A DNA stretch of 36,978 bases. Source: Candidatus Omnitrophota bacterium. Lineage in GTDB: Bacteria > Omnitrophota > Gorgyraeia > JAHJTE01. The stretch is from contig JAHJTE010000003.1 of the NCBI GenBank assembly GCA_018830005.1, forward strand, positions 265,674 to 302,651, written 5' to 3'. The notes beneath the pieces were generated by a model, which did not search any database, had not been told where the DNA came from, and saw only the letters and a program-made list of their open reading frames with translations. Both the position numbers and the translations under genes were made by a program. Positions 5,815 to 32,800 of the stretch are shown here, one piece after another. Within the stretch, counting starts at the first letter, position 1; each line of letters opens with the position of its first letter.

Positions 5815-5826
5815 CTCTATTCATTA

Positions 5827-8800
5827 TTAGAGCAATCGTCCTAGGTAAAAATCTTCGATTATCGCAACAGCCTCCTGGTATGTGTCAACTATTCTATAAC
5901 GATTTAAATCCTCCTCAACTATAACTCCGGCAGGCAAAAGAGTCTTTTTAAACCAAGTATGCCAGGGCTGCCAGAAATCTCTTCCAAGTAAAACTACGGG
6001 AACCTGTTCTATCTTTTCCAGTTGCATCAAACATAATACTTCAAATAAAATATCCAATGTGCCTGTTCCACCCTGCAAGAAAACAAAACCCAAGCTACTA
6101 TGTCTGATAAGGGCCATCTTCTGTTCAAACGTATAGCTAAAGCCCAAGTTCATGCTCGCATGATTAGAATGATCTCTATTGCCTTTAAGCAATAAAGATA
6201 TGCATTGTGAATTAGTCCCTTTTACATCCTTATAACCCTGAGCGGCTGCAGCAGAAATACCCCTATGGCCTTTATAGATTACAGATATGTCACTATTGGC
6301 TAAACCTTTAGTTACCTGCCTTGCCTGTTCATACTCCGGACTAGTCTCGGAAACAAGTTCTGAACCTACAATACCAAAGGCAGGAACAACCTTCTCAATT
6401 CTCTTCAAAGTCCGATATAGATCTCTAATTACCTGCTCAATGTCAACATTATTATTAGCATTTAACTTCTCTAAACAAGCCTCATCTTCTAAATATCTAA
6501 GTATTCTCTGACTAGAATCTAAAACAACGAATAAATCTTTCGGCCTCTTTCTCAATAAACCCCGTTCAGACAAATCTCTCATTCGCTCTTCTAATCCTTG
6601 ATAGAATTTTCTACTAACATTATCAAACAAGACCAAGGGAAAATCATTGATATGGCCTTGATCCTTTAAGCTAGCTATTTCAAAAAATTCATCTAAGGTT
6701 CCAAAACCACCCGGCATACATAACGCGCCAACGCTTAAATCAATGAACGCTCTTTTGCGGGCGAATAAATACTTAAACATTAAACCTATATCAACAAATT
6801 CATTGCCTTCCTCCTTCGGGCATTGTATTTGCAAACCAACAGATGGCCGAGAAGTCGCAACACTGTTAGCCGCCCGCATCACTCCCGGGCCTCCGCCAGT
6901 AACTATAGAGTAGCCATTACCATCTAACTTCCTTACTAAATCTTGAGTATCATTATAAATCGAATCAGCCTCACCAACACTAGCTGAACCAAAAATAGAT
7001 AATGCTGGATGTATTCTTCTAATTTGATTTTCATACTGCCTTAATTCTCTAACAATATCCTGGATAAGTCTTGAAAGTTTAGCATCATTTAACTGCCCTA
7101 AAAACTGAACTAAACTTCCAGGCATATCTACACTTGGCCTGATAAATATCCACAATGTATCATATTTATCTTTGACAGTGAGTCTTATAACTCTCCAGCC
7201 GCGCTGGGCCATAAGTTTATATACCCGGCTAATCTCCTCATATCTTTTATCATCCAGAACCGCAGGAAAGAGATGAAAATGTACATCAATGCCGGGATAA
7301 CTATCAAAAACTTCAGCCAGTAACTCTGCGCGCTGCCTCTCTGACTCTGAATTTCCTAACTTAAAGCCCATATCCTCAGGATAAAGGTATCTAATAGCTG
7401 CATCCGAGACTATGATTGTTGGAGATTTGCTGCCTTCAATAACTTTATGCATAAAATCGATATCATAAATATCACCAGGTCCATCAGGTGGGAAATAATT
7501 AAAACCCTCATCAGAATAATCAGCGATGTTCCCCGCTAAATCTATTGCTATATATTCTCCAGCATAATCCTCTTTTCTTAGCGCCTCATATAACCTAAAT
7601 CTAGTTTCCGGACCGAGTTCAATTATAGTAGCTGCGTAAGCCATAGCCTTAATTAAATCTTTAGACAAAATCTCCCAAGTCAACGGGTCTGCCACATCAG
7701 TTATGCTGTTAAGTGTATATGTCTCAATATCAGCGGGTTTTTCTGATACCCCGCCGTTGCGGGGGTCGGAAGGCTGAAATACCCTAATTATTCTGCGGAT
7801 CTCTTCAGGTGTAATAAGTCTGTCTCTTCCTTTTCTTAATTTTTCTGACATCTCTGAAACTACAGGATCGAGCTCCTCGCTTGGACCCGCAATTTCCTGG
7901 CCGTATTGCCTTAACAACTCTAAGACAAAAATGCTGAATCTCATCCAAGGCCCCTTTTTAACAATCATTAGTGCCAATCGAAAAAGCCTAGTGTAGTCAA
8001 CCGACTCTAATTGCTCTATAATCCACTGTAATTGAGTTCGTGCGCAATAGTGGTGCTCTCTTGTGCGTAAAACTAGAGCAAAATCCTTTTTGAAACGACC
8101 ATATTCTAGTATGACTTGAGACTCTTCGATATCTTCGCTCCAACCTATTTGTTCAAGAATAGAAAAGCCTCCCAAATCGCTTATAATTTCACTAATGAAG
8201 CAGTCACCAGAAAAAATATTATGGTCAAGTTCATGGGCGCATGTACTTACAAAATAACTAGTAGCAAAACTTGTACCCTTAATATAGGGAATGCCAAATA
8301 TAAAATAAGAAGACGCGTTATCATACTTCTCACTAAAACAAGCTTGAATTAGAATTTTATATACTAAAAGCCTATATTCTTCTTTACTAATTAAAGAGAT
8401 TAGAAGGTTCTGACGAAATAGTAATATTGATAGCAGAACTTTCGTAAGTATCTTATCTCTGTCTTTACTAGCTAAAATAGCATCCATCTTGCCTAAGCCT
8501 ACTAATGTTTGTCTTGCTCTTTCTAAGTATCCATCTATATTAGTTCCTTCCATATTGATAAGATAAGAGCATTCTTCCTCTAAATCCTTAAGCCAAACTA
8601 AATCTCTTTCATTAGCTATCAAGATATTTAAAGAATTAATGAACCATTCTTCATTATTTTCAAAACCTTTCCCTACTATCTCTAGGTCAATATGCCTGGC
8701 TAATCTTTCAAATTCATCTATGCCGAACTTATAAATACGCACTAAATTATGAGAAAAAGCGGCATTATTTCTACTAAATGCGTAACGCATCCTATCTCTT

Positions 8801-11800
8801 CCAAAAAAGTTAATCAATCTAGCACATGTCTCTTTAAACTCTTCTTCAGTCATCTCTGAATAAACCCATCTGAATGTATAAGCACTCATAAAGTAATCCA
8901 AAGAGCCTTGCTGTGGTAAATATATTTCTGTATCATTCCCACTCCTATACAACCCCAACCCTGCATCATGCAGCATCATCCTTATTCTCTTACCCACCGG
9001 TGACTCTCCCACCGGCTCTTGGTAGTAGAATACGTGGCCGTCGGTGGAGCCGGGAATATCGCCGTCACGAGAATCAAGAAGTGAGTCTTCATAAGTCTTA
9101 ATTATCTCTAACTGTCGCGAGAGGAGCCAATGCTCGCAGATATCGTATTTATCAGTATCCATTAGCCTTAGATCTCTGATTTCTGTCTCAATCCTTGCCT
9201 TTAGCTGACTTAAGGCATTTGGCGTCTTTCGTCTTCTTCCTCTTGGGGTGAAAACTTCCTTTTCAAGCAACTCTCCTACAATCTTGCGTTCATCGCTATT
9301 AAGTTTCCTGCACGCTAATGCTCTATGATTAAGCTTCCTGCGAGAAATTTTACCATCGCTATTTGTTAAAAATAAAAAACCGGTTACATTATTGTCTCCT
9401 TGAGTATACACTCCCAATAAACCCCAATTCAATCCAGCAGCCCTTGCTTGAATCTTTATCATTTGACCGTCAAGTTTATATGATATAGACAAATAGGACG
9501 TTATTGTAGATTTGCTGAATAATCTTACAAGGCAAGCCCCAATTCTTTGGTGGGAAGTAGCCTTTCTTTCGATATAACCTTCGGGAAGCTTACTTGTAAA
9601 TCTGGAATTAAACCAATCATTCAATTGTTCCTCGGTACTTAATCGCTTCTTCAGCTCAAGTATTGTCTCACCAGGTTGCATTTTCTCTATACTTTTAACT
9701 TTTCCATTTTCTAATTCCACAAATTCTCTTCCTATTGGTACTTCACTTTCGTTAAAAACAACAATAACGCAATAATTATCTCCTCTCTCATCAATCCCAG
9801 TGTAGCCTTTTCTATTAGCATATTTTTTGTAACCACTTAGAGCGTTCATCGTTGGAATAATATAGATAGCTCCATTCTTATCAATCCAGATAGGCAGCCA
9901 TTGCGGAACCCTGCCTTTGACATTTGAAGCAACAAAAGCCTGCCAGTCTTTTCTTGCCTTTTTAACATTCTTATTATCTTCTTTTTCTATTTCAAGAATT
10001 TTCTTTGCTTCTCCTACGTCGAATTCTCTCTTCAGTAAATACTCTCTTGCCTTCTTAATCCAATTTCCGATAGTTAGATCTGAGTATTTTTCTCCATCCT
10101 GATTTCTTATACCCATATCATAAAGTATGTATGTGATCTCCTCTTTTGTGTGAGGATTTCCATCTTCTAAACCACAAAAGAAACTAAAGGCCAAAGCCTT
10201 ATTCGGCTCTATAAGAGCATAATCACCTAAATATTCTATTAATCTAGCTCCTCTTTCAGTCACATCCTGATCCCCATCTTCCTTAGCTTCCTTTAATTTA
10301 TATGCCTCTAGAGAAATTTCGCTTAAGAACATCTCTCCAGCTAGTAGCTCTCCTCCCTCAACTCGTCTCTCATCATCAAGACTTACTTTATCCCGCTCTA
10401 TACTCTTACCAATAAACGCAGTATATATGCCGTCTTTAATCATAGGGGCTAGAAATGTGCTTAATTTTGTATCCTGGGTGAAGTCATACCTTTTCTTGCC
10501 CTTTAAAATTTCTGTCAGGCAACAAATTCCTGCAACAAGTAATTCCTCTTCATCATAGAGGCCTAAAAGAAACCCAATTCTGGGGGTTGAATGAATTATA
10601 TTCTGAATAAGCCCTTTATTTTCCTCCACAAATTGCACTAAAGCCTCCTGGTTGCCGATTTCGATTTCTCTATACAAACGTCTCCTTCTCTGTTCTCCTG
10701 GCTCTATATATCTCAGAAGTAGCTCTCCTGCATCTCTGACTCTTAAAGGAGATTGGTTAAGTAACCAAACAAAAGCATTCTCTGCTTTCTCTACTTTATA
10801 CTTGCCTGCCAACTCTCTAAAAACATCTTTCAGCGTGCTTACATAATGGCGTCTCTTCTTGCTAGGCAACTTGCTTTGCCTGATAATCTTCTCTAAAGTC
10901 CTAAATAGATAAGAGTATTTTGCTCCTCGGCTCATCTCTGGAGTTTGATCCTGCTCTCCTTCAACATCAATCTCATAGTTCAAAACCCAGTCAATATATC
11001 TATCTATAGCTCTTACCAGCGCCTCCAGATCGCCCCTTCTAAGCCACTCTTGCAGCATCCCTCCTGATACCCCGCCGTTTTTGGAGGCAATCGCTGCCTT
11101 TCCTTCTTTCATATTTTTCCTATACTCTTCAATAATCTCCTCCTGTGAATCAGGAATACCTAAATCGCTCAAGAAACTTTCGTCTAATTCCTCAGATCTT
11201 TTTTCGTAATACAACTGAATAAATCTCTCAGTCAAATATAGTCTGCGCGCTGGACTCTTTAATATTTCATACATAATGTCATCAGGATGAGGGCATTGTT
11301 TGGCGATAGCAATAAAATCTGGCTCTATCTCTAATGTTAGCTGATAGAGTAAATAAGGCTCGAATGCCAGAAAATAAATCAAAGGATCATTTTTTGAAAT
11401 ATCAATGATAGTGGTAATATCTTCATCGTAAACATTTCCAAAACAAGGAATTGCCGTGCAGTAATAATATACATTTCCGTCACAATTTACAGTCACTGTC
11501 TGTGGTAAATAACAATAATCTACGTCTTGTCCATAATAATCTGTTCTTTTTCCATTAATAAAATTTTCTGTTGTGCCATAATCCCCGAGATAACATTCCT
11601 CATTTAAAAGTTCAGCGAATCCTAACCTGCTAACAAAATCTACACCTACAATAAATCTATACTCTCTACGATTTTTAATTAGGGTCCAGTAGATAGTTCT
11701 AACTACTTTCTGTTTTTTTCCATTTCGGCCTCTTATAGATATCTTCTCTTCTACTTTAGTTTTAACAGCAAAACCTCTCCTTTTTAATTCAGACTTCAAA

Positions 11801-14800
11801 ACACCTAGGCGTTTATGAACATCAGGTTCATGAAGAGAACGTATTACTAAAGAAATTTCTGGAAAATCTTCTGCAATTACTTGAACTAAATTGGCAATAT
11901 TAGAAATAGGTATTGTTCTCTGATGAAAGCTATCTAAGGAGGTATTTAAAATAAAGTAATAATCTGAAGTGGCATCTGTTTTAGCTTTTATAATTTTATA
12001 TACTTCGGATAAACTATCCCTTGCAGACCCTGGTGTACTCGCAAACTTAGCATTTGTTTGTAAGATATTGGGTTTTCTGCTATTTTCTAACAAAAATAAA
12101 ACATCCTCTTTAGCGAATGATAAAGGCTCTCCACCGCCAATACATATCTCTTTGAACCTGGGATCATTTTCTGCAAATTCCAATAAGTCTCTATACATCT
12201 TCTCTTTTTGCTTCCAATTTAATTTTCTCTGTGGTTTGCAATAAACAAACAGGCAATGAGGACACCAGGTATTACATTCTCTAGTAACCTGAAATGTAAA
12301 CATGTGCTTTAGAAATGCCAAAGGGCCTACTAAATCAACTTTGGCGGAAAACCTTTTTACAACTTCTCTTCTTTCTAAATCTACGCCTTTGCCAGTGAGG
12401 CAGTAAAAATACTTTTCTCTCCTCATTAATGCCTTTAATCTTCTTGGGTAATCATTACTACCATCCTCAGTATTCTCATTATCTGCACTATACCCCGGCC
12501 AGTGCGCCTTACGAATTGGACCAAAGAAGATATCGGTTGTAGTGGGTGTTTCTTGAGAGTGGTGATGTCTTTTATTTTGTGGGTCTTCTGCATCTTCTTC
12601 GTCATTATCTTTTTCGGAATAAACTAATTTCGCATCTGTAGCCATTAAGATATGTCCATTAAATATATTGCAATCGTAATGGCCTTTTTCATCAAAGATA
12701 TATTTAATACTTTCGGGAATTTCAATTGACTTCTCAAACGTCCTGGTACTGATGAAGGTACCATTAACATAAACAAAGCTATCATCTTCTGCAAAAACAA
12801 CACACATAAGCTCTCTGTCCTCCATATTTCTTTCATTCATGTAATAAAGAAGTGTCCAGAGAAGCAGTGCCTTATCTCTGTGACTTCCAGTTACAAAGGC
12901 CAAGACCTCATCCGGCAACATAATCCTATCAAGGCTGCCAAATACAGACTTAAATCCTTGGATATTTCTGACAAATCTTATCGCATCATCTAAGCTGTAC
13001 ATAAATCTCGCATTATCTTTTGTGTGTGTTTCTTCTAAGGCCTTGGCTGCGTAAACTTCAGGGTATTTAACCTTAAGGCTTCTAAATGCATACAATGCAG
13101 CTTCATACTCAAAATATTCTTCGGCAAGATTAAATGCGTATTTTTGCAAAGTTTCTGCTGAATCAAAATCTTGAATATTGATTGGTGCGCCTCTTCTATC
13201 AATAAATCTTATCCCAGACAAATCTGGTATATTAAATTCTGCTCCAAAGAATTCGCTTAATCTTTTATAAAACTTAACTACTGTATCTTTGGACATAGTT
13301 GAAATGCCTAATACAGAATTAAAAATGCCGCTAAAGGAAACGAAACTGTCAGTACATGGAGCTGCAAATTCTCTATACCAATCTATATTCTCGCTTAATT
13401 CTTTAAACTTCTTCTTAGAATACCAATATAAATTAGAAAATACGTATCCTTCATCTATATCTATGAAGACCGCAAAATGTATTTGTGTGCCAAATATAAA
13501 TATTTTTTCAAATGGAACCTGAGTAAATATCGATATTAATGATAAAAATGCTGCATCTAATGTGGCAAATGATGCACATTTACCTTCTGCCTTATTATCA
13601 TGCCGTATCCTTCTATAAGCATGCATTAATTCAATAATTTCATTCTTCATGCGTGCCCTATAGCCCTGCCTATAGGCTGTTGTTGTACTGAATCCTCCGT
13701 AGCCTCCTTCATCAACAGAGAAAAACTGGTCTAATCTATCTATGATTTGCCCCACTACTTCATCACCTAAAGCGGCCTTTTTAAAATCAATAGTAGTCCA
13801 ACCCCACCTACATCCTTCAGGCCGGTCAGATGTTGAGAAAGTATTTACATAATAATGTTTTAAATGTCCTTCTAGACTTCTTAATGATTGCGCTGTACTC
13901 CTGCCTTTAGTCTTTCTTTTTATTATCTTCCAGGCCAGAGGCGACATCATATTAGCTAGCCAAGCTGAAAGCAATAGCTCAGGATGTGCAGCAATCTCAA
14001 AATAATCCCATGTAACTGCCCAAGATAATCTTTGCTTATAGATATCTGACATTAATACTTCTCCTAAACGCAGAATCTCATGTGATTCATATTCAAAAAA
14101 CAACTCAAATATCAAATGTCTATCCTGAACATTGTAATCCTCCAAAAGAATCTCAAAGGCCTTTTTTAGTATAGGCAATAATACTGGTTTGCTATCAATT
14201 ATTGATACTAAACTTGAAACTAAACATGGAAAATCCAACTCAATGATTCCAAACTTGCATTCCCTAATCTGCTGTAAATGGTATTCAAGATACGCCTTCA
14301 TAATCCTTGCCAACTCATTAGCATTTCCCTGCTTCGCCAACCTGTATAGCATCCCTCCTGACACCCCACCGTTTTGAGGAGAATTACCGCAGACTTGCTC
14401 AGAAAGTAATCTTTTCTTCAATTCTAAAGCTAGTTTATCTTTAATAGCTCCTCTAGTGGCATTCTCTTTTTTTATTTTCTTAATTGCTAACTGCAGCTCT
14501 TTTCTAAAAATAGCGACTTTTTTATTGTCTCCTCTAATCTTATCCGCTAGGGCACCTAAAGTATTTCCTTCTTTAAGAATATTAAACAATTCCTCATTTG
14601 AAAGAGTTAACCCTTTTTCTAAAATTATATCTTCTTCCCAAGACCACTGACCTCTCTTTTTAATCTCTCGTATCAAGATTTCATCTACTTCTAAAATAAT
14701 TATCCACTTTAAAAGAGTATCATAGTAAGGATGTAATTCTGAATCTCTCTTTCTTATCATCCCCTTGTTTACCTTTGTAATCTCAGAATCCTCAAGGTCT

Positions 14801-17800
14801 TTGCTAGATAGCTTGCCTTTATAAACATGCCCGGTATTCCCATCTAGAATTAACCAACTTCCTATCTTTACCTCTGCATTTGTTCTAGAAAATTTAACTG
14901 TGTTACTATGTATTTGTAAATTGATCCGTGTAAGATGAGGAATAATTTTTTGTGCACCACGCATTCGCACAACAATGTAGTCTGCAAATCCGCCTCCATA
15001 TGAAATTGCTCCTGAGATACGTCTTTCTATTGCCTCAGGAGTAATAGTTTGTAATCTCTCAAATTCCATAACATTAAATATTACAGCTATGCCTTTACGG
15101 CCTTTTGGATTAGTACAATCAGTAATAATCGGTCCGCTAACAATACCAGGCAAGACTATAATTCCGCTGGCTATTGGTTTTCTTTCAAGGTCTTTTCGCA
15201 GAACAGGAGATTCTAGATATGTTTTTGTCCACCATAGGTGTTCAAGACGCACTGAGGAGGGTACATCAAAATTAGAACAATCTTCATACTCTTCCTCTCT
15301 AAACCTACCTAAAGCATCCTCTTCGGATATAAGGCCTTCTTTCACAAAGTCCAATAAAATCCTTACCCTTGCAAGCGGGGTAGAAAATTTCTCGTTTCCT
15401 CTTGTTTGCAATATAAACAGTTTTCCATTTTGAATAGTAAATTCTATATCCTGAATCTCATAAAAATGCTTTTCAAGCAACAAGGCAAATTCCTCTAATT
15501 CAAGATATTGTTGAGGTAAATACTTTTGCAAAGCATCAAGTCCCTCTGGTCTATCCCATTTACATAATATGTTATCTACTATTTTTAACCTGCCTACGAC
15601 CTCTGAACCTTCTGCATTAAACTTAAAACTTCCGTAAATTCCTTTTTCTCCGTTTAGAGGATTCCTTGTAAAAATTACCCCACTGCCCGACTTTTCATCT
15701 CCTATATTACCAAAAACATAGGCCTGGATATTACATGCAGCGCCACAAACAAAATAAGAGGATTGTATAACCGACTTTACCGCTAGCATAAGCTGTCTTT
15801 TGGGGGTAGGGAATTTCTTACCTGTCTTTTGCTCAAAAAGTCTCTCTGCTTTTAAAACCATCTCTTTAAGCTTATCTAGAGAAATAAGTTTGGGTAGTAT
15901 GTCATACCTATCCATATAATAATTTTCCCGTAGCGAAGGTATCTCATCCACAATCTTATTTACCCCCTCATCAAACCCAGCATCATCTTGGCTGACACAT
16001 TCTGCAATATAAGACATAAAATATAACAAAAAGTCTAAATACGCCCTATGCATATCACCTATTTCTCTTCCGTAAGCATCCAATGTTATTCTGTGTAACC
16101 CTATCTTTGTATACGTTTTATATCTACCTGGCTCGCTTTCTTCGGCACCACTTCTAACAGAAAGGAAAAGCGGATTCTTCAAATCCCCAAATTTCTTTAC
16201 ATGCCCAAAAACCTTTTTCGTTCGCCTTTCTATTTCTGAAACACCTTGAAATATCAATTCACTCACTCCTTTTGGTAAGCTATTTCTATTTTCATCGTAT
16301 CTTCTGACAATCTTATTTGGTATGGTAAATCCCGGTGGCACTGGCAAATCTAATCTTGCCATTTCTGCCAAGTTTGCACCCTTTCCTCCCAAGGCTGATC
16401 TCATGCTTGCCCTACCACATGCTTTACCCCCGCCAAAATAATATAGGGCTCCTGAAGTCTTTTTTCTACTGGATTCTCGCCGCAAATGCGCCACACGGAC
16501 TGGACCAAAGAACATATCAGCTGCAGTAGGTGCTTCTGGGAAGTGATGATGTCTTTTAATTTGAGGACTTTCTACATCTTCATGTGTTGATCTAGCAAGA
16601 TGGGAGTTATTGGAAATAAGTCCAAGCTTACGTGTAATACTCTTATAATTACGGCTAATATTACTAGGAGAACAGTTAAACTGCCTGGCTATCTCTTCTT
16701 GATTCATATTGATTATCCCTGACCTGTGTAAGGCAGCTAGGATAAACATCTGTTTATTCCTTTCAGAGGCATTTATAGGCTTTAATAGTTCTTTTAGCCT
16801 TGTTTCTGCTTCTTGTTGGGTTAATTCAGGTAGTTGTTCTTCTGGGATTAGTTTATCTAATAAAGTCTGTGGCCTTCTTCCACGTTCATCTTTCTCGTTT
16901 AGGGATCTATCTAAAGAACTAGTATTTTCTCGCTTTTCCCTCCTTAGCTCAGATCTTGCCTTATCATCTATAGAGCCCATGAATCTTTTATAGGCATAGG
17001 CACCAATTGTCTTATCCCATTTCTCTGGATCAAAGCGTGCCACAATACCCGGGATAGCCTTAAGGCAGGCAGAGAGACGCTGATCAGAATCTAGGTTGAA
17101 GTATTTTAATCTATACTCTTTGGATATTTTCTTTGCAAGCCATTCCAGAGAATACATAAGTGCCTGGTAAGCTGCTAGGTTTCCTTTCTGAACCTCTTTG
17201 GCTAATTTAACCTGTTGTTCTAGACTCATATCTTCGCTTTTTACCTTTGTCTTTCCATTTAAAATATCCTTGACTACCTTAGGATTATCATAATGCTGTG
17301 TGAATTTCTGATATACACAGCTTTCACAACACGGCTTCATGCCTTGGCTCTTAACGAAATCAAGCCAGCTGCCGTAGATTCTACGGACTGCCTCTACCAT
17401 GCCGCCATAACCAGCCTCTTGCCATTGACTGCTGCTTCTTACGTCTTTGATCTCTGTAGGGGGATTCCTAAAGGCCTCAGAGAGGGTTTGTTCGGTCCAT
17501 TTGGGAATACGGCCTTTTTTCTCAATCGGCTGTATGTCTTGGCTCTTAACGAAATCAAGCCAGCTGCCGTAGATTCTAAAGGTCACCTTTACCATGCCCC
17601 TATAACCAGCCTCTTGCCATTGACTGCTGCTTCTTACGTCTTTGATCTCTGTAGGGGGATTCCTAAAGGCCTCAGAGAGGGTTTGTTCGGTCCATTCCTT
17701 TCGCTCAATTGGCTTTATACCTTGACTTTCAAGGAACTTATGCCAGCTGCCGTAGATTCTAATAGCTACCTTTATTATGCCCCTATAACCAGCATCTTCC

Positions 17801-23800: not shown

Positions 23801-26800
23801 CAGAGCCTAACCTGTACAGGCTCTATAATTTTTAGTTTATCGTAGAGTCTATCTAAGAGCTGCAAAATAACTATCCTTGAACCAACCGTATTTGAGCCCT
23901 GACTGACAAAATTTCGCTGATAAACATCAAAAGCCTCTTGGGCCAAATCTAACTCAGAAAGCCCAAAACCTTCTGATACCTTGCTAACATTATTTGTTTT
24001 TTCCAAGAGTCTTAAGACTCTACGGCTATATTTTATAAGCCTTACACCTCTGCCATTACCATTGCCCATATATCCATTACCATTGCTTAATGGTAACTCA
24101 TAGCCTATCTGCATAGCTCTCTTTCTTAGAATTTCAATACAGCTTATATTTAACGCCTTCTCAACATCTGCCTTATATCCGTCATTCTCGGCCAATCTCT
24201 TAAAGATAATACTAAGGCCTTCTATTACAGAATCCTTGAAAAATCCTGAATCCTTCATAAGCTTACTCACTACCAGATTGATTCTATCCATTATTGCGCG
24301 TTGACTGAGACCAAAAATACGGGCTAATTCCTTATATTCAAAGTTAAATGCAAAGCGTAGATATAGAGTCCTTAAATCTTCAGTTCGAAAATCAAGTAGA
24401 CTCCTGCTACAGGACTCTGCCAAAGGTCTAAGCAAATGGTCTGCCATGGTCTTATCAAACGGCGTATTACTGTTTCGCCCTTGTGCTACCTGTCTAATTC
24501 TTACAAGCAATAATCTTCTTTGCCTACGTACTTCTTTGACTACCTGATTTACTAAACAATTGTGTCTGGGTGTGAAATATTTTTTAGCCCCTTTAAACAA
24601 TCTATCTATCTGCTCTTCTTTATACTCATACAGAAAATCTCTGTAAATATTCCTTAGGTAATCATCGTCTAAATCAGAACAAACTTCACTTAACACCTCT
24701 TTAAAGTCTCTCCTCAATTGAGGAGTAATATTTTCTGCATATGTCAAGCCTCTTATAGTTTCACCTAATCTTTTGCTAATCGATGTAAAAGTAGCATTAA
24801 ATAAACTACCAGTTACCACAATTGGAACCCTTTCTTTTATCCTGACGTAGAAAATAGCCTGCCATTTAGATGGTAATTCCATAAATGCATGGCGCACTTT
24901 ATTCTTATTGTATATTTCTATTCTTGCTGCTAACCAGAAACATGCATCTATTCGCCTCTCAAGCCTTTTTGCCCTGACTATACTATTCTCTCCCACTGCT
25001 ACGAAAAGTTCTTTACTGAATGTTTTAATTATTTTTCTAATGCCGTCTGTTGTATTGTATTTAAAAGCCCTCTCTGGAAGAGCTGCCTCGATCTCTTGTA
25101 AATGATCTATATTAGGTAGATAGATATCTCCTTTTAACAAGCTAATATTAATATCTACTACTCTTTTCAAATACATATATTTTGCAGTCAGAGCTAAAAC
25201 CTTATTCCAAGAATTTGCATTTGCTAATAAAGAATTGACCTCAACAAATTTCTTCTCTATCAGGCACGAAAACATTCGTTCGAACCTAGTCTGATTATGT
25301 CCTTCTTTTTTGACGTCAGAGCTAGCTAACAGCAATCGATTTTCTAAAGATGAAAATATAACAAGTTTTGTCTGTAGGTCTTTTTCTTCTTCGCAAAGAC
25401 TAGCCAAGATGGGCAGCCAAAGCAAATCTCTATCAATGACCTTATTAAAACTCTCTGCTAGTACTTCAATGCTGTCTAATGTTGTTGCATCCCTAAGCTC
25501 AAAGATTAATTTAGTTAAATTTGCAACTCTCCTATCCCAATCTGAGTCTGGTATTAATTGATAATAAATTTCTAATATTTCCTTTTTCGAAGAGGCAGTA
25601 TATTCTAGGGTCTTATCGCAAATTGCAGATCCTATTTCCTCTATCTCTTTGCTATTTCTATAGTTAAATAAGCCCTTACGAAACTCTATGTCTATTTGTT
25701 CTGCCATCATTAATTGACTATATCTAATTATCAAGTCAACAACTTCTCTGTAGTCTACTACCTTTTCTAATAATATCTTAATATTATTAATTTCACTCTC
25801 TATGGCCTCATGCATATCTATTCTTAAATTGACAATTTCATCTGAATGATTGCCAAATTTAAGTAAGTCTAGCTGGTTACGCAAGAGTATGAATATTATA
25901 AGCTTGATTGATAAGTCTTTTTCTGCCCCATAGACTTCTTTCAATATCGAAATTGACTCACAACCTAAATCCTCACTGAGCCTGTTAAAAATTTCCCGAA
26001 TCCTACCTAAATCATTAACTCCTCTAAGTGAATCAAGCGGACCCAATCTCTCTTTAAGGTTATTAGATAAAGTTCCTATATCGCCAATATCATCAATCCT
26101 TCCTAATGGGGTGAACAAATCCAAGGCCACCTTTATTAAGTGGGGGTATTTACTTAAGACTTCCTCTATAGGTGAGACTAACAACCTTCCTAATAATTCC
26201 CCTCTTCGCTTTAGCTCTAATCTGACATGCTTGGCTAAAGGAATCTCTTCAACTAAGAACTCTTTCAAGGTTACCTTTTGGACAAGACCCCTGCCTTCTT
26301 TAACACTTAACTTGTATGCTGTCGCATCATAATTGGCAGCTCTTAAGTCTTTTAATCTCATAGCTAATTGTGGTAGACCGCTATATTTATCCATCCAAAC
26401 AGCTAATGGTTCTTTTTTAAGCCCAATCCAATAATCAATATAATCCCCACTTCCTTTCGATGTACATATTTTCAATGTTCCTTCCAAAGTAGTAAGGCGA
26501 TTTTCAATTCTAAGTTCATCTGTATTGTATTGTTTAAACATTGTCTGTATCTGAGCAGGCGTCGGGAAACGATGATAAAATGTCTCAAATACATTGCCTC
26601 CGCTACAAGCTGATACATACTCTCCTACATAAGCATCAAAATGACATGCTTCATAATCTTCAAGCTTCATATAATATAAAAGTAATAATCTGCCATTTGA
26701 CTTTACAAACCAAGCTACTGCAGAATCTCCATATTTGAATTTATTGCTATCTAAATTATACATTTCATAATTAAAATGTATCCTGGCAGGCTTTTTAACC

Positions 26801-29800
26801 TCTAAATTCTTGGCTCTAATAATACTGCCATCGTCAAGCTCTTTAAATACTTCGCTCCATTCAATGCCTTCATCTCTCCAGATTAGATTATCTTGCTCGC
26901 CTAAATTCTTCTGTAGATAAACTGCCGCACGCCTTCTGCCAGATACGCTTAAATTACTTATCTCAATAGTCTCTTTCGGGATCAATCCTTCACTAAAAAC
27001 TAGGATTAGACCATTAATAATGTGTGTAAAATAGTACTTTCTTTTAGCGCCAAAGATGAATTGCCCGTTATTGCCAGTAGAGATAATTGCACTATTCTCG
27101 CTTAATTTGATATCTTCCGGAAATTTATAAAGGTATGTTGCAATTATTGATCCTTGCATATCAAATATCTCATTATAAACAAACTCACTTTCAAGGCATG
27201 CAGTTAGTATTTCTTCAAGTTCTCCAGCTGATATTGTTCTAGCTTTACCTCTAATGTTGCCTTTTTTATCTATGTTAAGTCTTTCTCTGTAAAAGATATT
27301 CCTTAGAATAATTGGATAACCGCTCAAGCTTTTAAGCTTAATCTCTATTTGTTTTGGCAAATTATTTATTGCCGTCGCACATAGTTTAATATATGCCTGG
27401 TCCTCAATTATCGATGCGCTACGAATCAACTTCGTACTATCAAAACCTCTGGTTATCATTAGGCTTGTCCTTGCCGAAGCAAAGTAAACACTCGAATTGT
27501 AATCCCAAAGCCGAATCTTTCCATCTTCATCTGTAATCACGCCGTTTATTAAAAGATTATTGTAACCTTTCTCATCCATAAGTTCATCTATCTTATCCTC
27601 TATCATCTTTTTAGGCCGCTTGAAACCACCAGGGAGAGATATCTCTCCAACTTCTGCACCGGTTAGAGTATCAATAAAGATTATATGATCATTTCTTAGC
27701 CTGCGCTTGTATTCTTCAAGTTCTTCTTCTGTTGGCAGCAGCCTTTCAGGAATATCCTCTATAAAGTCGGGGAATGCCTTACTTAATTCTCTTAACTTAG
27801 CCCTCACAAACCTATCTATCTGGTAATTACTACCACCCAGGTAGAGTTTTAAGATTTTGATAAGTTCTTTCATCTTCACAGTATCTGTCTCTGCTACAGC
27901 TAGGGCATTTCGGATAAGGCGTTTGAGGGAAGGGTTTGCTTTTTGAGTGTGTTTGGTATCAGCTAGGCAGGTTAATCGCTTAAGGTTAACTCCTCCAGCC
28001 AGCATGCCGGCGATTAGCGTGTTGTGTGCTACGAAGTCCTGAGTGGTTCGACAGAACTCACCATAAACGAGCGAAGCGAGTCGAAGGATGAGTTCTGAGT
28101 TCTGGGCTAAAAGCGCAAGACCCAAAGCGCAAAGCGCAACAGCTAACATTAAAAACATTGTGCCAAAAAGCATGGAACTACGCTTTCTCTCAGCTTGGGT
28201 GTTATTGCGCAAATACGCATCAAATTGGCCTGAAGCGGACATGGCTTTAACATCACTCCAGAAATAAACCCGAATTTGCTCATCTTTAAAATCACAATTA
28301 GAACCATTTCTTAACCTTGTAGAGCCGTCAAAATAGAAGGAATATTTAAGGTTGAACTCTTCCCTATCTAAATATTCTCTTTGATCTTTAGAGATTGTTT
28401 GTGCTAACAACTCTAGATCTGCCCTCTTCACAATACCTTTATTCTGAAATGCAAGATCACGTATACAGTAGAGCAATGAATCTGGCCAAGGTCGGCTTAT
28501 ATCAAGATAAAATGGGATGTGAATTTCGCAAATATCTTTCTCTGAAGAGAATATTCTATTAAAGGCTTTTGAAATATGTTTAAATGTTGTAAGTAAACAA
28601 TATTCTATAGCTCCGCCAATAAGGACAAAATTATTCTGATGACTCTTCTTGAACACTTTGTCTAACCATCTTAAATCCAGCCACTTTAGTAGTAGCAATT
28701 TATTAACATCTGTAAATTCAAATTGTTTTCCCAGCGCTTCTGCGCTATCGCTAATATCATGAACCTGAACTAAATGTAATGGATGCATGGCTGTCCTTAT
28801 ATGATCATAAGCCTTATTAGATATTAATATCCCACCCAGGCCGGCGGTTAATGGGCTGTCTGTCCCGAGTGGCTGTAAGGAGTCTAGAGATGGTAGGTCC
28901 TGAGTCGCTTTTTGGCTCTGTATCTCTATTAATTTTTTATTTGTAATCCGTTGTGAAGGTGTTTGTAAATCTTCAGAGTAACTATAAAATCCAAAACAGT
29001 ACACTGCGCTACTATTTTTTGTATCAAAGGTGATGTCGGTAAAGGTGGTACATAAAGAAGGAAATAACAATCTTATATTTTTATAGCCCTTACTGGCTAA
29101 ATGATTAATTATTCTTCCTCGAAATGCAAATAATTGCCTATTGTGTTCTAATTGGAAATCATCGAATAATGCCAAGCCGCCAGCATGAACTTCTATTTCC
29201 TCGCCGTTGCCCATATCCTCATATGCAATATCTATCAATCTAATTGCCTCGTCTAATTCTACCCTCCTTTTATGGATAGGATATGTCCTCTTATTCTTAT
29301 GATTATGAATAATAACGAACACACATGGCCCTACGGAGAACCTAAAAGGTTCTTGATCGTCTATTAAGTATTTATCCGTGGCTAACGGCATTGTAACATC
29401 TGCAATTGCATCATAAGTCCTCCCTAAGCCAGTCCCACCTATACCAACAAACTCTCTGTCCTTTTCTTTATCAAGCATAATTTCAGTATTATCAACCACT
29501 AAGATTACTTTTTGAGAGTCATCAAGACTTCTATGAGTACAAACAGCAATGCAGGTAAAGACCAATAGCTCTAAAGCAATTATAATCAGAGCAGTATGAA
29601 AACTCCCTGGGCCGGCTAAATTCAAAGTCTGCGCCTGGCCTGATGCGCTAGAGAATAAATCGACAATCCCTATAGTTAACCAGAAAGACAATATCAACCC
29701 ATGTATTAAGTCATTATCGAGTTTTTTAATTTGGGTAATCGCTACTATTCTAAACACCTTATTAATTACTAAAGACTTATTACCAAGCAGCATTTGTATA

Positions 29801-32800
29801 TAATCTCTTAACTCCTTCCTTGTCTCATTATTACCTTTACCTAAAATCTCTGAGAGAAATGCCTTACAGTATCTATAAGCAAGGGCTTGAAAACCTCCAT
29901 CAATAGCTAAGGCTAAAAGTATTGCCTTTAAACGATGCAGACTATTTATATCTTTAAGCATAGCCAAGGCCTGATCATAGTTTTGCCTCTTGGCTTCTCT
30001 GGTAAAAGGAAGACTCGGCATAACTCTATTATTGGTTGACTTTCTCTCATATATTGCTAAGTCCTCAACAATCTCAGGATAAATTGATACTCTTCTTAAA
30101 TTTTTAAAGTGAATCTTATCCAGGCAAGGCATGTATATGACTAATATTGATTCCTGGCCTAAGCCGGACACAGCATCTACCTTATTCAATAAATTATCTT
30201 GACGCTCTGACCTATCATAATAATAGAATATTAGTCTGAATCCGCTAATATCAAAACTCATATCCGTAAGGTTTGCCAAATCCAATATCCGTACCTCTTC
30301 TTTTGGCGAAAATTTTGGCAAGACGGTTTTAACAACACCTTTGTTAAGAATGCTTCGGATATGATTAGGGGGTACGTCGTAAGTTTCTAATAAATTACGT
30401 GGTAGCTGTCGAGGTGAAATCTTCTGGCGATTATCATTCATCGCCGCTAGAAAAACAACCCCAGTGCTACTTGTGTCCCAGTTAGGCAGGATATCAAATA
30501 CAAGATTCCAGATAGTAGGCACTAAGATAAGACCTACAGCAATTATCAAAAACAGGCTGCCGAGAGTGATGAAACCCCTGTTGCCATCTTTATGTTTTGA
30601 CTTATTTTTTAAAGGTGGTATTATTTCTTCATAGCTGTAATGTCGGACATTGGGATGACCTTTTCTACCGGTCCAACCAACGCCTATTTCACATGGGTAT
30701 CCTTTATATATACTGCTGCGATAATCACTGCCAATGGTATATGTCTTCTGGTCATTAGGATGTTCTTCGTTCCACTTCTCTATAAGAGCCAGAAGATGAA
30801 TTCTGTCTCTGGTTCTGTACAATTTATGGTCAATTTCCAGACCGTCAAGCCCCCTCTTAAATAATTCAAATATTTTTTCATCGCTAGCATCTTCCTTCTT
30901 CTTGCCGAAAGCTCCCGGATGCGCATAAATAACAACACCACCAAATCTATGGGCCCAATCTATTACTTCTTGGACAGATGAATAACGCTTAGGTTGTGTC
31001 TGAATTAAATCTTGCATATTCTCTTTAAATTCTTGCAAATCAGGAAAATAAACTAGCATATCTCTCATAGAATCTTGATCCTTGGTTCTGATTTCAAGGC
31101 CTGGTATAATTTCCAGACTCGTGCCTTTTACTGCTTTTAGAGCTTCTCTAAAAGCAGTAAAACTAAATCCGTCCTTGAGATGGTCAACAATAGCGATGGC
31201 TTTTAATCCCTTTTTCAAGGCTTGGCTAACAATATCTATAGGGCTCAAATCACCGTTGTCAAAGCTTGAGTGTATATGCAAATCTACTTCATTTACTGAA
31301 GCAATGCGTTTTTCCTCTACCCCAGATACAAGTAGCCGGTCCATGCTTGTAGAATTCGTATCTGTCTTTTCATCAAAGACGCCGGCAAATGACTGCCACT
31401 TTCCTGTTCTCAGATAAATTGCATACTCAGTTAAGCGGATCAAGAGATCCTTTAGCAGGCCTTCAAGTTCATTTAATTTAAGGTCTACCTCTCCTTCACG
31501 CACATGCGTATTCTTACTAATAAAGCTCTTTAATTGCTTAAGCGAACTCTTTAGGTCAGTAACTATTTCAGAAACAGATGGTTTTTGCTTTGCTACCTTA
31601 TTTATTTTCTTGCTTATTTTATGTTTTCTGATTAGTTTGAAGCTCTGCCTTAAGGCTCCTATCCAATCATATTCTTTAGGAAAGATACGTTTCTTTTTAA
31701 TAAAAGTCTCTTTTCTTAAGTCTTGGATATGCTGATTTGCCCCATCTATATATTTATAGATTTTTTTCAATACAAGAATCGTCTTTTCTGACTCAGGTAT
31801 CTCACCAAATATATCTTCAAATATTTTCTTAGCTCGGTACTCTGGATTATGCCTGCGTTTCTCTAAAATTGGTTGACGTATTCCACATACAACTATTGCA
31901 ATACATGCTAACCCAAATGCTATGAGTAATATATTTTCAAAAATAGATAAAGGGAAAAAATTAAACATCACACCCGAAATTATAACAGCGGTAACAAAAC
32001 ATATGCTGAAGTGTGTTGAAATTAATCTGCCAAAATTCTTTAGGAATAAACGTATTGAAAATCGTTGGCCTGCTTTTTTATCAGATGCAGAGAAAGTATC
32101 ATATACTGCAAATAGCAGGTTAAGAATAGCCCAAGCGCCTAGATAAGGAGAGATATGTTGCAAAAATCCTTTCATAGCAGGACTTAGCGCCAGCGGCAAG
32201 CTGTCTAATAATCTGCTTAATAATAAATCTACGTCCTTAAGACTAGAGAGAATAGATAGGGTAGGCGTAAGGTAAGAGATGAAAGATAAGGGAACAAAAC
32301 TATGAACTATGGTATTGACTAGATAAAGTGGCGGTGCCTGCGGCTGCAGTATGTCTGTAAGTATTTCCTGCGTATGGCCAGTCTCAAAGCTAAATAACCA
32401 CGCCACTAAAACCGTACACAATATTAATGCCAATTTAGCAAGGCTAATAAGCTGCTTGGGATTTGTAGTTTGCGTTTCTTTAGAAGCAGGTAAAGGCCTG
32501 GGGTTGAACTTGTCCCTGTCCAAAGGAAGCCCTGAGAAAACCTTAATAAGGCAATCAATGTGAGAACCGCAAAAATATGGTGCTTTTCTGTCATCTCTTG
32601 CACTGCTTAATCCTAAGACCTCAAAGTGGGCGCTGCTAATTTGGTAGATCCACTGCATTAATATACTCTTCTCTTCTTCTGAGAGTCTGCTAAGATTATC
32701 ATAAGCTTCAATGATATGAGGTGTTTCCCTACTGAGTACCTCCCGAACATTGCCTATGCCTTGCGCAATTCCATCTTTCCATCCATATCTTTTAATCCAA

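What the first reader, a model, noticed from the sequence alone, without database searches (positions are those of the whole stretch)
5830..31295. Repeated loss of catalytic residues across the enzyme modules
PPDK His to Tyr, LOG copy 2 Glu to Ile and Arg to Gln, PHP terminal His to Arg, and second transglutaminase-like Cys to His. The ORF is intact and the folds are still recognisable. By contrast the radical SAM, LOG copy 1 and HExxH motifs are intact. The pattern suggests pseudo-enzymes kept as ligand sensors or scaffolds; relaxed selection is the alternative.
Basis: partly seen in the sequence, partly recalled or inferred. Interest (0 to 1): 0.68.

Follow-up and report, generated by a model that had tools for sequence, protein, structure and literature searches.

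The report
Dead enzyme sites in giant protein
A bacterial protein of more than 10,000 residues carries several enzyme-like modules with missing catalytic residues; these have different histories, and the clearest is an ancient, conserved "dead" twin of a nucleotide-cleaving domain that most likely serves as its built-in partner.

Summary
The region is the C-terminal 8,500 residues of a giant ORF (5827-36978, minus strand, cut by the contig end) in a 1.65-Mb Candidatus Omnitrophota genome.

Three of the four claimed substitutions are real:
- PPDK-like phospho-His to Tyr (TAC, 14977-14979).
- LOG copy 2 Glu to Ile and Arg to Gln, plus loss of its glycine loop.
- PHP terminal DxH to DYR.

The "second transglutaminase-like Cys to His" is not supported. 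Pfam, a profile-profile comparison and a fold search all fail to show a domain there.

The losses are not one phenomenon:
- **LOG.** LOG-LOG' is an ancient tandem module found in at least 10 Omnitrophota giant ORFs. All copy-2 domains form one clade, all lack the Glu and the glycine loop, and they evolve only about 1.3 times faster than copy 1. AlphaFold gives a compact two-domain unit (pTM 0.91). This is a conserved pseudoenzyme, most likely an intramolecular pseudo-dimer partner.
- **PPDK-like.** The module belongs to a barrel-less family in which the His is kept in 23 of 23 relatives. Only this copy has Tyr, with no rate acceleration and no other decay.
- **PHP.** The module belongs to a small subfamily without the insertion domain, with variable loss of metal ligands.

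Neutral decay is rejected for LOG' and not supported for the PPDK-like module. A ligand-sensor role is untested.

The parts
5827..36978 (-). Giant ORF, 10,383 codons in the window. It is open at its 5' end because the window ends at the end of contig C3. Stop codon at 5827-5829.
30604..31296 (-). PHP-like module (P1895-2125) without the insertion domain. HxH 31270-31278, DH 31180-31185, Glu 31093-31095, Asp in place of a His ligand 31060-31062, AHP His 30919-30921, terminal D-Y-R 30718-30726 (Arg replaces His).
14656..16446 (-). PPDK-like module (P6845-7441): ATP-grasp (15289-16446), swivel domain (14788-15204) and a conserved C-terminal helix. There is no PEP/pyruvate barrel. Tyr in place of the phospho-His at 14977-14979 (TAC).
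12673..14049 (-). Module shared with the giant ORFs of G001 and G144 (P7644-8102). The first unit has conserved Cys (13576-13578) and His (13477-13479) and is weakly transglutaminase-like. The 'second unit' has His at 12880-12882, with no support as a transglutaminase fold. The DDSFVYVNGxFIST block after it is the best conserved part of the pairwise alignment with G001.
11389..12306 (-). Radical SAM-like module: CxxxCxxC at 12253-12276, GGE at 12127-12135, and a Cys-rich SPASM-like tail.
8221..8235 (-). Lone HELDH motif (P9582-9586). No family assigned and no homologue found.
6481..7047 (-). LOG copy 1 (P9978-10166), all motifs intact: GGGPGVM 6877-6897, RK 6754-6759, PGGFGTLDE 6688-6714.
5845..6438 (-). 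LOG copy 2 = LOG' (P10181-10378), a conserved pseudo-LOG. Degenerate loop YKGHRGIS 6253-6276; Gln-Lys 6118-6123 (Arg to Gln); QGGTGTLDI 6049-6075 (Glu to Ile). Conserved Glu 6040-6042 and invariant Leu 6028-6030 lie in the helix that, in LOG dimers, reaches the partner's pocket.
   Evidence: PMC4979012

Best explanation
The ORF is one of the giant mosaic proteins of Candidatus Omnitrophota. It is built from modules that are duplicated inside the gene and shared between genomes. Its 'dead' catalytic sites have three separate histories.

(1) LOG tandem. The C-terminal LOG-LOG' pair is an old, fixed two-domain module. One duplication happened before the giant-protein modules diverged. Copy 1 kept every catalytic and nucleotide-binding motif of a type-II LOG nucleotide phosphoribohydrolase. 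Copy 2 lost its glycine loop and catalytic Glu in all members, and its Arg in most. It kept the LOG fold and the helix after the GGxGT motif. In solved LOG dimers, residues at the positions of this helix are supplied to the partner's substrate pocket. LOG enzymes work as dimers, so the most likely mechanism is that LOG' is the built-in, non-catalytic dimer partner of copy 1 (an intramolecular pseudo-dimer with one working site). Shown: conservation, single origin, fold, compact two-domain model. Inferred: the pseudo-dimer geometry and the one-site activity.

(2) PPDK-like module. It belongs to a family with an ATP-grasp and a phospho-His swivel domain but no acceptor barrel. The family occurs alone or fused in Omnitrophota and Elusimicrobiota, and its His is otherwise invariant. 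This copy alone has Tyr, through one C-to-T transition. The ATP-grasp residues and all other family-invariant positions are kept, and the evolutionary rate is normal. It cannot run a phospho-His relay. It is either kept for ATP binding or a structural role, or the knock-out is recent.

(3) PHP module. It belongs to a small subfamily of giant-protein PHP domains without the insertion domain, in which metal ligands are lost to different degrees. This copy keeps 7 of 9, has one His to Asp and one His to Arg, and may still bind two metals.

The fourth claimed case (a second transglutaminase-like unit) is not a demonstrable domain.
For: LOG'
- Tandem modules covering both copies occur in giant open frames of 3,484-44,856 aa in 9 other genomes.
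- In the 10-sequence alignment, copy 1 keeps GGGPGxM, Arg and PGGxGTxxE-Glu in 10/10. Copy 2 has I/V/M/T/L at the Glu position in 10/10, no glycine loop in 10/10, and Gln at the Arg position in 7/10.
- Mean pairwise identity is 0.41 for copy 1, 0.32 for copy 2 and 0.18 for the linker. The C-terminal half of copy 2 (0.39) is better kept than that of copy 1 (0.30).
- dN is similar in the two copies and dS is saturated.
- In the tree, copy 2 is a clade (support 0.96), copy 1 is a clade (0.97), and the two are sisters (0.96). The tree-length ratio copy 2 / copy 1 is about 1.27.
- AlphaFold2 gives pLDDT 89.6 and pTM 0.91. Foldseek hits type-II LOG structures with target-normalised TM-scores of 0.83-0.90.
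- In CgLOG, Arg99 and Glu122 are catalytic, PGGxGTxxE binds the phosphate, and Glu125 and Trp129 come from the neighbouring monomer (PMC4979012). The equivalents in LOG' (E338 and L342 in A2 numbering) are nearly invariant and invariant.

PPDK-like
- The search of 1.84 billion representatives gives closer relatives than any true PPDK (P0001 and P0002 at 52-53% identity).
- The His is present in 17/17 of these and in 6/6 class-level modules.
- Our copy deviates at only 2 family-invariant sites (Y to F, H to Y), against 0-8 for the others.
- Its terminal branch is 0.61, against 0.55 and 0.67 for its sisters. Swivel-domain identities are alike.
- GGKG, SVRSGA, QDIEF and LQTRG are kept.
- A normal 918-aa PPDK with His exists elsewhere in the genome.
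- The codon is verified in independent DNA and RNA contigs.

PHP
- Alignment with 12 TrpH-type proteins and two G102 modules.

Context
- PPDK_N, Lysine_decarbox and Radical_SAM are listed among the commonest Pfam domains of Omnitrophota giant proteins (bioRxiv 10.1101/2023.11.21.568195).
Against: - pTM 0.91 shows a defined arrangement, not which one.
- Copy 2 keeps GGxGT in about 7 of 10 members, so a phosphate or nucleotide site, and hence a sensor role, cannot be excluded.
- For the PPDK-like module, no relative closer than 52% identity exists. The age of the His to Tyr change is therefore unknown, and a recent inactivating mutation fits equally well.
- No activity, binding or protein-level expression data exist. 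The RNA evidence rests on short contigs, and DNA carry-over is possible.
- The PHP subfamily has only three members.
- dN/dS could not be estimated properly.
Confidence: 0.6

Rival explanations
1. Relaxed selection. The modules are decaying neutrally, and the ORF stays open only because downstream modules must be translated.
For: Copy 2 of LOG evolves somewhat faster than copy 1 (tree-length ratio about 1.27), and its N-terminal half is the least conserved part (identity 0.26). The His to Tyr change is a single transition seen only here. The two PHP relatives in G102 have lost different ligands.
Against: LOG' has been kept as a recognisable clade, with invariant positions, across about 8 families. 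It folds confidently and is much better conserved than the linker. In this genome its branch (0.47) is shorter than that of copy 1 (0.86). The PPDK-like module shows no rate acceleration and only one further, conservative change at 34 family-invariant sites.
Confidence: 0.1
2. LOG' is a regulatory ligand sensor. It still binds a nucleotide or phosphate ligand through its GGxGT turn and gates copy 1 or a neighbouring module allosterically. It is not a purely structural partner.
For: GGxGT is retained in about 7 of 10 copy-2 sequences, and the following helix is strongly conserved. In CgLOG the main chain of this motif holds the phosphate (PMC4979012). Foldseek also finds PpnN, a LOG-family nucleosidase solved in (p)ppGpp-bound forms. 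PilZ genes follow the ORF.
Against: The glycine loop GGGxGxM is gone in 10/10. Both residues that contact the ribose and the scissile bond are replaced. In two members even GGxGT is broken (PRDAQT, PADFRT). No ligand is predicted by any tool used here.
Confidence: 0.25
3. The PPDK-like His to Tyr change is a recent loss-of-function mutation, fixed by drift or hitch-hiking in a clonal population. The module is newly dead, not a maintained pseudoenzyme.
For: It is unique among 23 relatives and needs one transition. The population is essentially clonal across five runs from several studies. Absence of further decay is what a young lesion predicts.
Against: The change is fixed in samples dated 2018 (X1 DNA) and 2025 (X6 RNA), and the region is represented in RNA. 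Otherwise nothing argues against it. The data cannot separate 'recent' from 'tolerated'.
Confidence: 0.35
4. The substitutions are sequencing or assembly artefacts of a metagenome-assembled genome.
For: The genome is a MAG in four contigs, and the ORF is cut by a contig end.
Against: Independent Logan assemblies of five DNA runs and one RNA run reproduce the sequence. One differing letter was seen in one of the contig pieces listed. The Tyr-codon region is covered at ~80x word depth.
Confidence: 0.02

Closest known systems
Type-II LOG / LOG-family nucleotide 5'-monophosphate phosphoribohydrolases (Pfam Lysine_decarbox PF03641; PDB 5zi9, 5wq3, 1wek, 9us2; PpnN 6gfl)
   Same: Copy 1 has the fold and all family motifs. 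Copy 2 has the fold (target-normalised TM-scores 0.83-0.90) and the post-motif helix.
   Different: Here two LOG domains are fused in one chain inside a giant protein. The second lacks the glycine loop, the catalytic Glu and (mostly) the Arg. Known LOGs are homo-oligomers of identical active subunits.
Pyruvate phosphate dikinase and other PEP-utilising enzymes; architecturally closer, from my own knowledge, are ATP-grasp + swivel-His phosphotransferases without the barrel, such as rifampicin phosphotransferase
   Same: The ATP-grasp with GGKG, SVRSGA, QD.EF and LQTR motifs and the swivel-domain fold align to PPDK residues 7-545.
   Different: There is no PEP/pyruvate TIM barrel. The family motif is GG(F/Y)(A/S)DH instead of GGMTSH, and there is a conserved extra C-terminal helix. 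In this copy the phospho-His is Tyr.
TrpH/YciV-type PHP phosphoesterases (PDB 3e0f, 2yb1, 7ug9); also, from my own knowledge, the degenerate PHP domain of E. coli DNA polymerase III alpha as a precedent for non-catalytic PHP
   Same: The HxH, DH, Glu and AHP ligands and the overall order of motifs.
   Different: The ~85-aa insertion domain is absent. The terminal DxH is DYR, and one His ligand is Asp. It is embedded in a giant protein. The two G102 relatives have lost more ligands.
Giant proteins of Omnitrophota (West-Roberts et al. 2023, bioRxiv 10.1101/2023.11.21.568195; bioRxiv 10.64898/2026.06.07.730766)
   Same: Same phylum, same size class, and the same recurrent Pfam domains (PPDK_N, Lysine_decarbox, Radical_SAM).
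   Different: Term searches of those two papers found no discussion of whether these domains keep their catalytic residues. 'Catalytic' does not occur in the first; 'pseudoenzyme' does not occur in the second, whose four uses of 'catalytic' concern other things.
Tandem active/dead enzyme pairs in one chain, from my own knowledge: mammalian hexokinase I halves, receptor tyrosine phosphatase D1/D2, JAK kinase/pseudokinase
   Same: Duplication and fusion of an enzyme domain, loss of catalysis in one half, and long-term conservation of the dead half.
   Different: A different fold and chemistry. Here the parent enzyme is an obligate dimer, so the dead half can simply replace the second subunit.

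Membership tests
LOG family (PF03641), copy 1 | Pfam/PDB sequence match over the whole domain | tested here: met
   Lysine_decarbox E 1.7e-38; 9us2 aligned 29-217 to 16-205
LOG family (PF03641), copy 1 | GGGxGxM loop, catalytic Arg, PGGxGTxxE with catalytic Glu | tested here: met
   TGGGPGVM, ARK, PGGFGTLDE; invariant in 10/10 tandem modules
LOG family (PF03641), copy 2 | LOG fold | tested here: met
   BLASTP copy 1 vs copy 2 E 1e-17; AlphaFold pLDDT 89.6 with the same alpha/beta pattern in both halves; Foldseek hits to LOG chains
LOG family (PF03641), copy 2 | Catalytic Arg and Glu; glycine loop | tested here: not met
   FEQK, QGGTGTLDI, YKGHRGIS. Glu absent in 10/10, loop absent in 10/10, Arg absent in 8/10 of the homologous copies
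LOG family | Phosphoribohydrolase activity; dimeric active unit | not testable with these tools
   Needs an enzyme assay and an experimental or inspectable structure
Pyruvate phosphate dikinase | N-terminal ATP-grasp (PPDK_N) | tested here: met
   PF01326 E 1.3e-20; PDB 2x0s E 5e-66
Pyruvate phosphate dikinase | Phospho-carrier His in the swivel domain (GGMTSH) | tested here: not met
   GGFADY, Tyr P7334
Pyruvate phosphate dikinase | C-terminal PEP/pyruvate-binding TIM barrel | tested here: not met
   The alignment ends at PPDK residue ~545. The closest relatives also lack the barrel
Barrel-less PPDK-like module family (defined here from P0001-P0017) | ATP-grasp + swivel + conserved DSE(V/I)T..V...YY..L..WI tail | tested here: met
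   52-53% identity to P0001/P0002 over 595-604 residues; tail aligned
Barrel-less PPDK-like module family (defined here from P0001-P0017) | Invariant His in GG(F/Y)(A/S)DH | tested here: not met
   17/17 relatives have His; this copy has Tyr
PHP domain (PF02811), TrpH type | Pfam match above the gathering score | tested here: met
   36.5 bits against a cut-off of 26.4, but only profile positions 1-77 of 164
PHP domain (PF02811), TrpH type | Nine metal ligands (HxH, D, H, E, H, H, DxH) | tested here: not met
   7 kept, His to Asp at P1973, terminal His to Arg at P2087. Which metal each ligand binds comes from my own knowledge of Cv1693-type structures
PHP domain (PF02811), TrpH type | Insertion domain between strands 3 and 4 | tested here: not met
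   An ~85-residue gap relative to 12 TrpH-type proteins
Transglutaminase-like core (PF01841), unit 1 | Profile match with Cys-His-Asp | tested here: inconclusive
   No Pfam hit. hhalign probability 38%, E 3e-4, over the Cys helix only. Cys and His are conserved in G001
Transglutaminase-like core (PF01841), unit 2 | Profile match / fold | tested here: not met
   hhalign probability 0.5%; no similarity to unit 1; model pLDDT 50; Foldseek found no hit with E below 0.001
Radical SAM (PF04055) | CxxxCxxC and GGE motif; Pfam match | tested here: inconclusive
   Both motifs are present. The Pfam score of 24-26 bits is below the cut-off of 29.5
Zincin metallopeptidases | HExxH within a recognisable peptidase fold | tested here: not met
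   The motif is present once (about 0.2 expected by chance). No family hit and no homologue

The most novel reading that the evidence does not exclude
The LOG-LOG' pair is a signature regulatory cassette of Omnitrophota giant proteins. The dead half would be a nucleotide-signal receptor (for example for an alarmone or cyclic nucleotide, in line with the PilZ genes downstream) that switches the live half, coupling the giant protein's action to second-messenger state. In the same spirit, the barrel-less PPDK-like family would be a new ATP-driven phospho-relay built into these proteins, silenced by one mutation in this lineage.
Probability: 0.15. Interest if true: 0.65.

Novelty: new member of a known kind. 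Interest (0 to 1): 0.4.

Why it matters
How Omnitrophota giant proteins work is not known. Their domain lists are published, but whether the listed enzyme domains can work has not been examined. This analysis shows that a Pfam label is not enough. One recurrent 'Lysine_decarbox' pair is really one live and one conserved dead domain. The 'PPDK_N' hits belong to a distinct barrel-less family. Individual copies can be silenced by one base change.

The LOG-LOG' module is small (about 420 residues), folds confidently and recurs in many giants. That makes it a practical entry point for biochemistry on proteins that are otherwise too large to handle. It also adds a clean example of how an obligate homodimeric enzyme becomes a single-chain pseudo-dimer.

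Tried and rejected
- **Homologue search with the giant protein.** A search with 9,999 residues and region 5400-9999 found nothing.
- **Back-translated pattern scans.** Scans of genome contigs with the transglutaminase-like region and of metagenome contigs with the radical SAM region found no relatives.
- **G001 as an orthologue.** The 10,297-aa ORF of G001 (same family) was tested as an orthologue. Only two module types are shared, so the giants are mosaics, not orthologues.
- **Other modules in LOG-tandem genomes.** The 20 genomes holding LOG tandems or other module relatives were searched with P7400-10383. Only the LOG pair, the G001/G144 module and one weak radical-SAM-region match recur.
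- **pN/pS from public reads.** Four other DNA runs and one RNA run carry the ORF with one differing letter in one of the contig pieces listed, so no polymorphism is available.
- **Pairwise dN/dS (NG86) on the LOG modules.** dS is saturated or not computable; only dN is usable.
- **AlphaFold on the transglutaminase-like region.** A 4-sequence alignment gave pLDDT 50, and Foldseek found nothing significant.
- **Pfam at E up to 1 on 1,000-residue tiles in two registers.** No transglutaminase, peptidase or further enzyme domain appeared.
- **The 'regulatory Thr to Ala' of the PPDK motif as a further loss.** Considered and rejected: the whole barrel-less family has A/S-D/S at these positions.
- **Sequencing error for the Tyr codon.** Considered and rejected.

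Full report
**What the region is.**
- The window holds one open reading frame of 10,383 codons on the minus strand, 5827-36978.
- The window ends exactly at the end of contig C3 of a 1.65-Mb, four-contig genome (95% complete). The gene is therefore cut at its 5' end.
- The genome's ordinary PPDK gene has its closest relatives in MAGs titled Candidatus Omnitrophota.
- This phylum is known for giant genes. PPDK_N, Lysine_decarbox and Radical_SAM are listed among the commonest Pfam domains of those proteins (bioRxiv 10.1101/2023.11.21.568195). In that paper the word 'catalytic' does not occur.
- I number residues P1 from window position 36978 downward.
- Pfam and PDB sequence searches recognise only a small part of the protein:
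  - PHP, from P1899;
  - a PPDK-like stretch, P6845-7397;
  - a sub-threshold radical SAM, P8231-8324;
  - two LOG domains at the C-terminus.

**LOG pair: the observation.**
- Copy 1 (P9978-10166) carries TGGGPGVM, ARK and PGGFGTLDE.
- Copy 2 (P10181-10378) carries YKGHRGIS, EQK and QGGTGTLDI.
In addition, the glycine loop is gone.
- In Corynebacterium LOG, Arg99 and Glu122 are the proposed catalytic residues. The PGGxGTxxE motif holds the phosphate. Glu125 and Trp129 of the neighbouring monomer line the substrate pocket at the dimer interface (PMC4979012).

**LOG pair: comparative evidence.**
- A six-frame search of 300 genomes of the same class found the whole two-domain module (28-44% identity) inside open frames of 808 to 44,856 residues in 14 other genomes of 12 further families. 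The nine best, all in frames of 3,484-44,856 residues, were aligned.
- In the alignment of ten modules, copy 1 keeps the glycine loop, the Arg and the Glu in 10/10.
- Copy 2 has a hydrophobic residue or Thr at the Glu position in 10/10 and no glycine loop in 10/10. At the Arg position it has Gln in 7/10, Glu in 1 and Arg in 2.
- Copy 2 keeps a nearly invariant Glu and an invariant Leu three and seven residues after the lost Glu. These are the positions that in CgLOG are supplied to the partner subunit.
- Mean pairwise identity is 0.41 for copy 1, 0.32 for copy 2 and 0.18 for the linker. The two copies are complementary: the N-terminal half is best kept in copy 1, the C-terminal half in copy 2.
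- In a tree with 16 stand-alone LOGs, all copy-2 domains form one clade (support 0.96), all copy-1 domains another (0.97), and the two are sisters (0.96). This means one duplication, then co-inheritance.
- Summed branch lengths give a copy-2 / copy-1 ratio of about 1.27. In this genome the copy-2 branch (0.47) is shorter than the copy-1 branch (0.86).
- Synonymous sites are saturated, so omega cannot be estimated. dN is similar in both copies.
- AlphaFold2 on the 10-sequence alignment gives pLDDT 89.6 and pTM 0.91 for the 408-residue pair. Both halves have the same alpha/beta pattern. Foldseek matches type-II LOG structures with target-normalised TM-scores of 0.83-0.90.
- Conclusion: LOG' is an ancient, selectively maintained pseudoenzyme.
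- The most economical mechanism, inferred and not shown, is that it replaces the second subunit of the obligate LOG dimer. That would give a single-chain pseudo-dimer with one active site.
- A regulatory ligand site in LOG' remains possible, because GGxGT survives in most members.

**PPDK-like module: the observation.**
- The module aligns to PPDK residues 7-545. This covers the ATP-grasp and the swivel domain but not the PEP/pyruvate barrel.
- GGMTSHAAVVARG reads GGFADYIVVRMRG. The Tyr codon is TAC at 14977-14979.
- The ATP-grasp signature residues (GGKG, SVRSGA, QDIEF, LQTRG) are present. Their roles come from my own knowledge of Clostridium symbiosum PPDK.
- The genome has a separate normal PPDK with His.

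**PPDK-like module: comparative evidence.**
- Six PPDK-like modules inside larger ORFs of other Omnitrophota all keep the His.
- The exhaustive search of 1.84 billion representatives found relatives closer than any true PPDK. P0001 and P0002 are 52-53% identical. P0003 is from an Elusimicrobia MAG. P0008 is a 705-aa protein of an Omnitrophota MAG.
- These define a barrel-less family with the motif GG(F/Y)(A/S)DH and a conserved tail. The His is present in 17/17.
- The 'regulatory Thr to Ala' is a family trait, not a loss in this copy.
- Our module differs from the family at only two otherwise invariant positions: Tyr to Phe at P6983 and the His to Tyr. The other members differ at 0-8 positions.
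- Its terminal branch (0.61) equals those of its sisters (0.55, 0.67). Its swivel domain is as similar to them as they are to each other.
- There is therefore no sign of relaxed constraint on this module.
- The change is either recent or tolerated because the module's retained role does not need the phospho-His. These two cannot be separated without closer relatives.
- The codon is reproduced by an independent contig of run X1 at ~80x word depth and by a metatranscriptome contig of another sample.

**PHP module.**
- I aligned it with 12 stand-alone TrpH-type proteins of the class (consensus DLHvHT, SDG, DHD, PGxE, H.LGyf, AHP, GGSDcH).
- The module keeps HxH, DH, Glu and AHP. It has Asp for the H.LG His. 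It ends in IGSDYR instead of GGSDcH. It lacks the ~85-residue insertion domain.
- Its only close relatives are two adjacent modules in a 9,335-aa ORF of G102 (31-33% identity). They also lack the insertion domain and have lost more ligands (GSNFY, GSGGK, SLS for AHP, HVV for HxH).
- The terminal His to Arg is confirmed. With 7 of 9 ligands kept and one conservative change, this copy may still be a two-metal enzyme.
- The subfamily as a whole looks released from catalytic constraint but kept as a fold.

**Transglutaminase-like units and HExxH.**
- No transglutaminase or peptidase family is detected in the ORF.
- The region P7644-8102 is a genuine conserved module. It recurs in the 10,297-aa ORF of G001 and in fragments of G144.
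- Unit 1. Its Cys and His (GKCASFA...HFAVFID) are conserved. The profile-profile match to 13 real Transglut_core domains is weak (probability 38%, E 3e-4, Cys helix only).
- Unit 2. The segment GSHRDKALLL scores probability 0.5% against the same profile and does not resemble unit 1. The His is Pro in G001.
- The AlphaFold model is poor (pLDDT 50) and Foldseek finds nothing. A Cys to His 'loss' cannot be claimed here.
- The single HExxH (P9582) is expected about 0.2 times by chance and has no family or homologue.
- The radical SAM unit has CxxxCxxC and GGE and is probably real, though below Pfam's cut-off.

**Selection tests that could not be run as proposed.**
- No orthologue of the whole gene exists in the collections searched. 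The giants share modules, not order.
- Four other groundwater DNA runs from other studies carry the ORF with essentially no differences: one differing letter in one of the contig pieces listed. No polymorphism is available.
- Short contigs of one metatranscriptome match the ORF at about twelve places along its length. This is consistent with transcription, though DNA carry-over cannot be excluded.

**Verdict.**
- The 'repeated loss' is a mixture of four things:
  - one ancient conserved pseudo-domain (LOG');
  - one lineage-specific point substitution in an otherwise constrained module (PPDK-like);
  - one partly degenerate subfamily (PHP);
  - one unsupported motif reading (second transglutaminase-like unit).
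- Dead halves of duplicated enzymes are a familiar theme, so this is a new member of a known kind.
- Its value lies in giving the first residue-level functional reading of recurrent modules of Omnitrophota giant proteins, and a tractable module to test.

Noticed in passing
genome contig C4, first ~5.5 kb (minus strand); window 36838-36978: Contig C4 begins with an open frame of 1,822 codons running off its 5' end. The frame has a signal-peptide-like start and SpvB, FG-GAP, TcdB_toxin_midN and RHS-repeat domains (Pfam). It could be the missing N-terminal part of this giant gene, but no overlap joins C4 to C3. Contig word depth in run X1 jumps from ~75 to ~170-240 over the last 140 bases of the window. 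This suggests a collapsed repeat at the break. The stretch occurs only once in the assembly.
   Followed up: partly
window 5827-36978, whole ORF: The ORF contains many internal duplications at 25-70% identity. Examples: P2997-3623 vs P4717-5356, P5507-5897 vs P8911-9299, P1-356 vs P829-1180, and P6367-6497 vs P6428-6562. The protein grows by module duplication.
   Followed up: partly
L113 (G048:C1 38208-41531) and loci L111-L119: In the other giants the LOG-LOG' module is internal, because the frame continues after it. Here it is the C-terminus. G048 carries two LOG-LOG' modules about 800 bases apart in a 21,277-aa frame.
   Followed up: no
proteins P0001, P0002, P0004, P0005, P0008, P0010, P0012, P0017: Most members of the barrel-less PPDK-like family begin with a signal-peptide-like hydrophobic segment, and some are stand-alone proteins of 650-1,070 aa. 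An ATP-grasp behind an export signal is odd. These segments may instead be membrane anchors, like the linkers noted inside this ORF by other readers.
   Followed up: no
L141 (G102:C4 3541-5007): A 9,335-aa ORF of another Omnitrophota genome carries two adjacent PHP-like modules without the insertion domain. Both have several metal ligands replaced.
   Followed up: partly
window 1-36978: The same sequence, with one differing letter in one of the contig pieces listed, is present in groundwater runs of at least four studies dated 2017-2025. This points to a very clonal, widespread population.
   Followed up: partly
window ~34150-34245, ~24280-24520, ~16610-16750 (minus strand): Weak sigma-70 region 4 / LuxR-type helix-turn-helix matches recur inside the ORF, at P912-942, P4162-4240 and P6743-6789. 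All are below Pfam cut-offs.
   Followed up: no
window 4498-5814 (minus strand): The gene just downstream of the giant ORF's stop encodes a PilZ-domain protein (E 6e-14).
   Followed up: no
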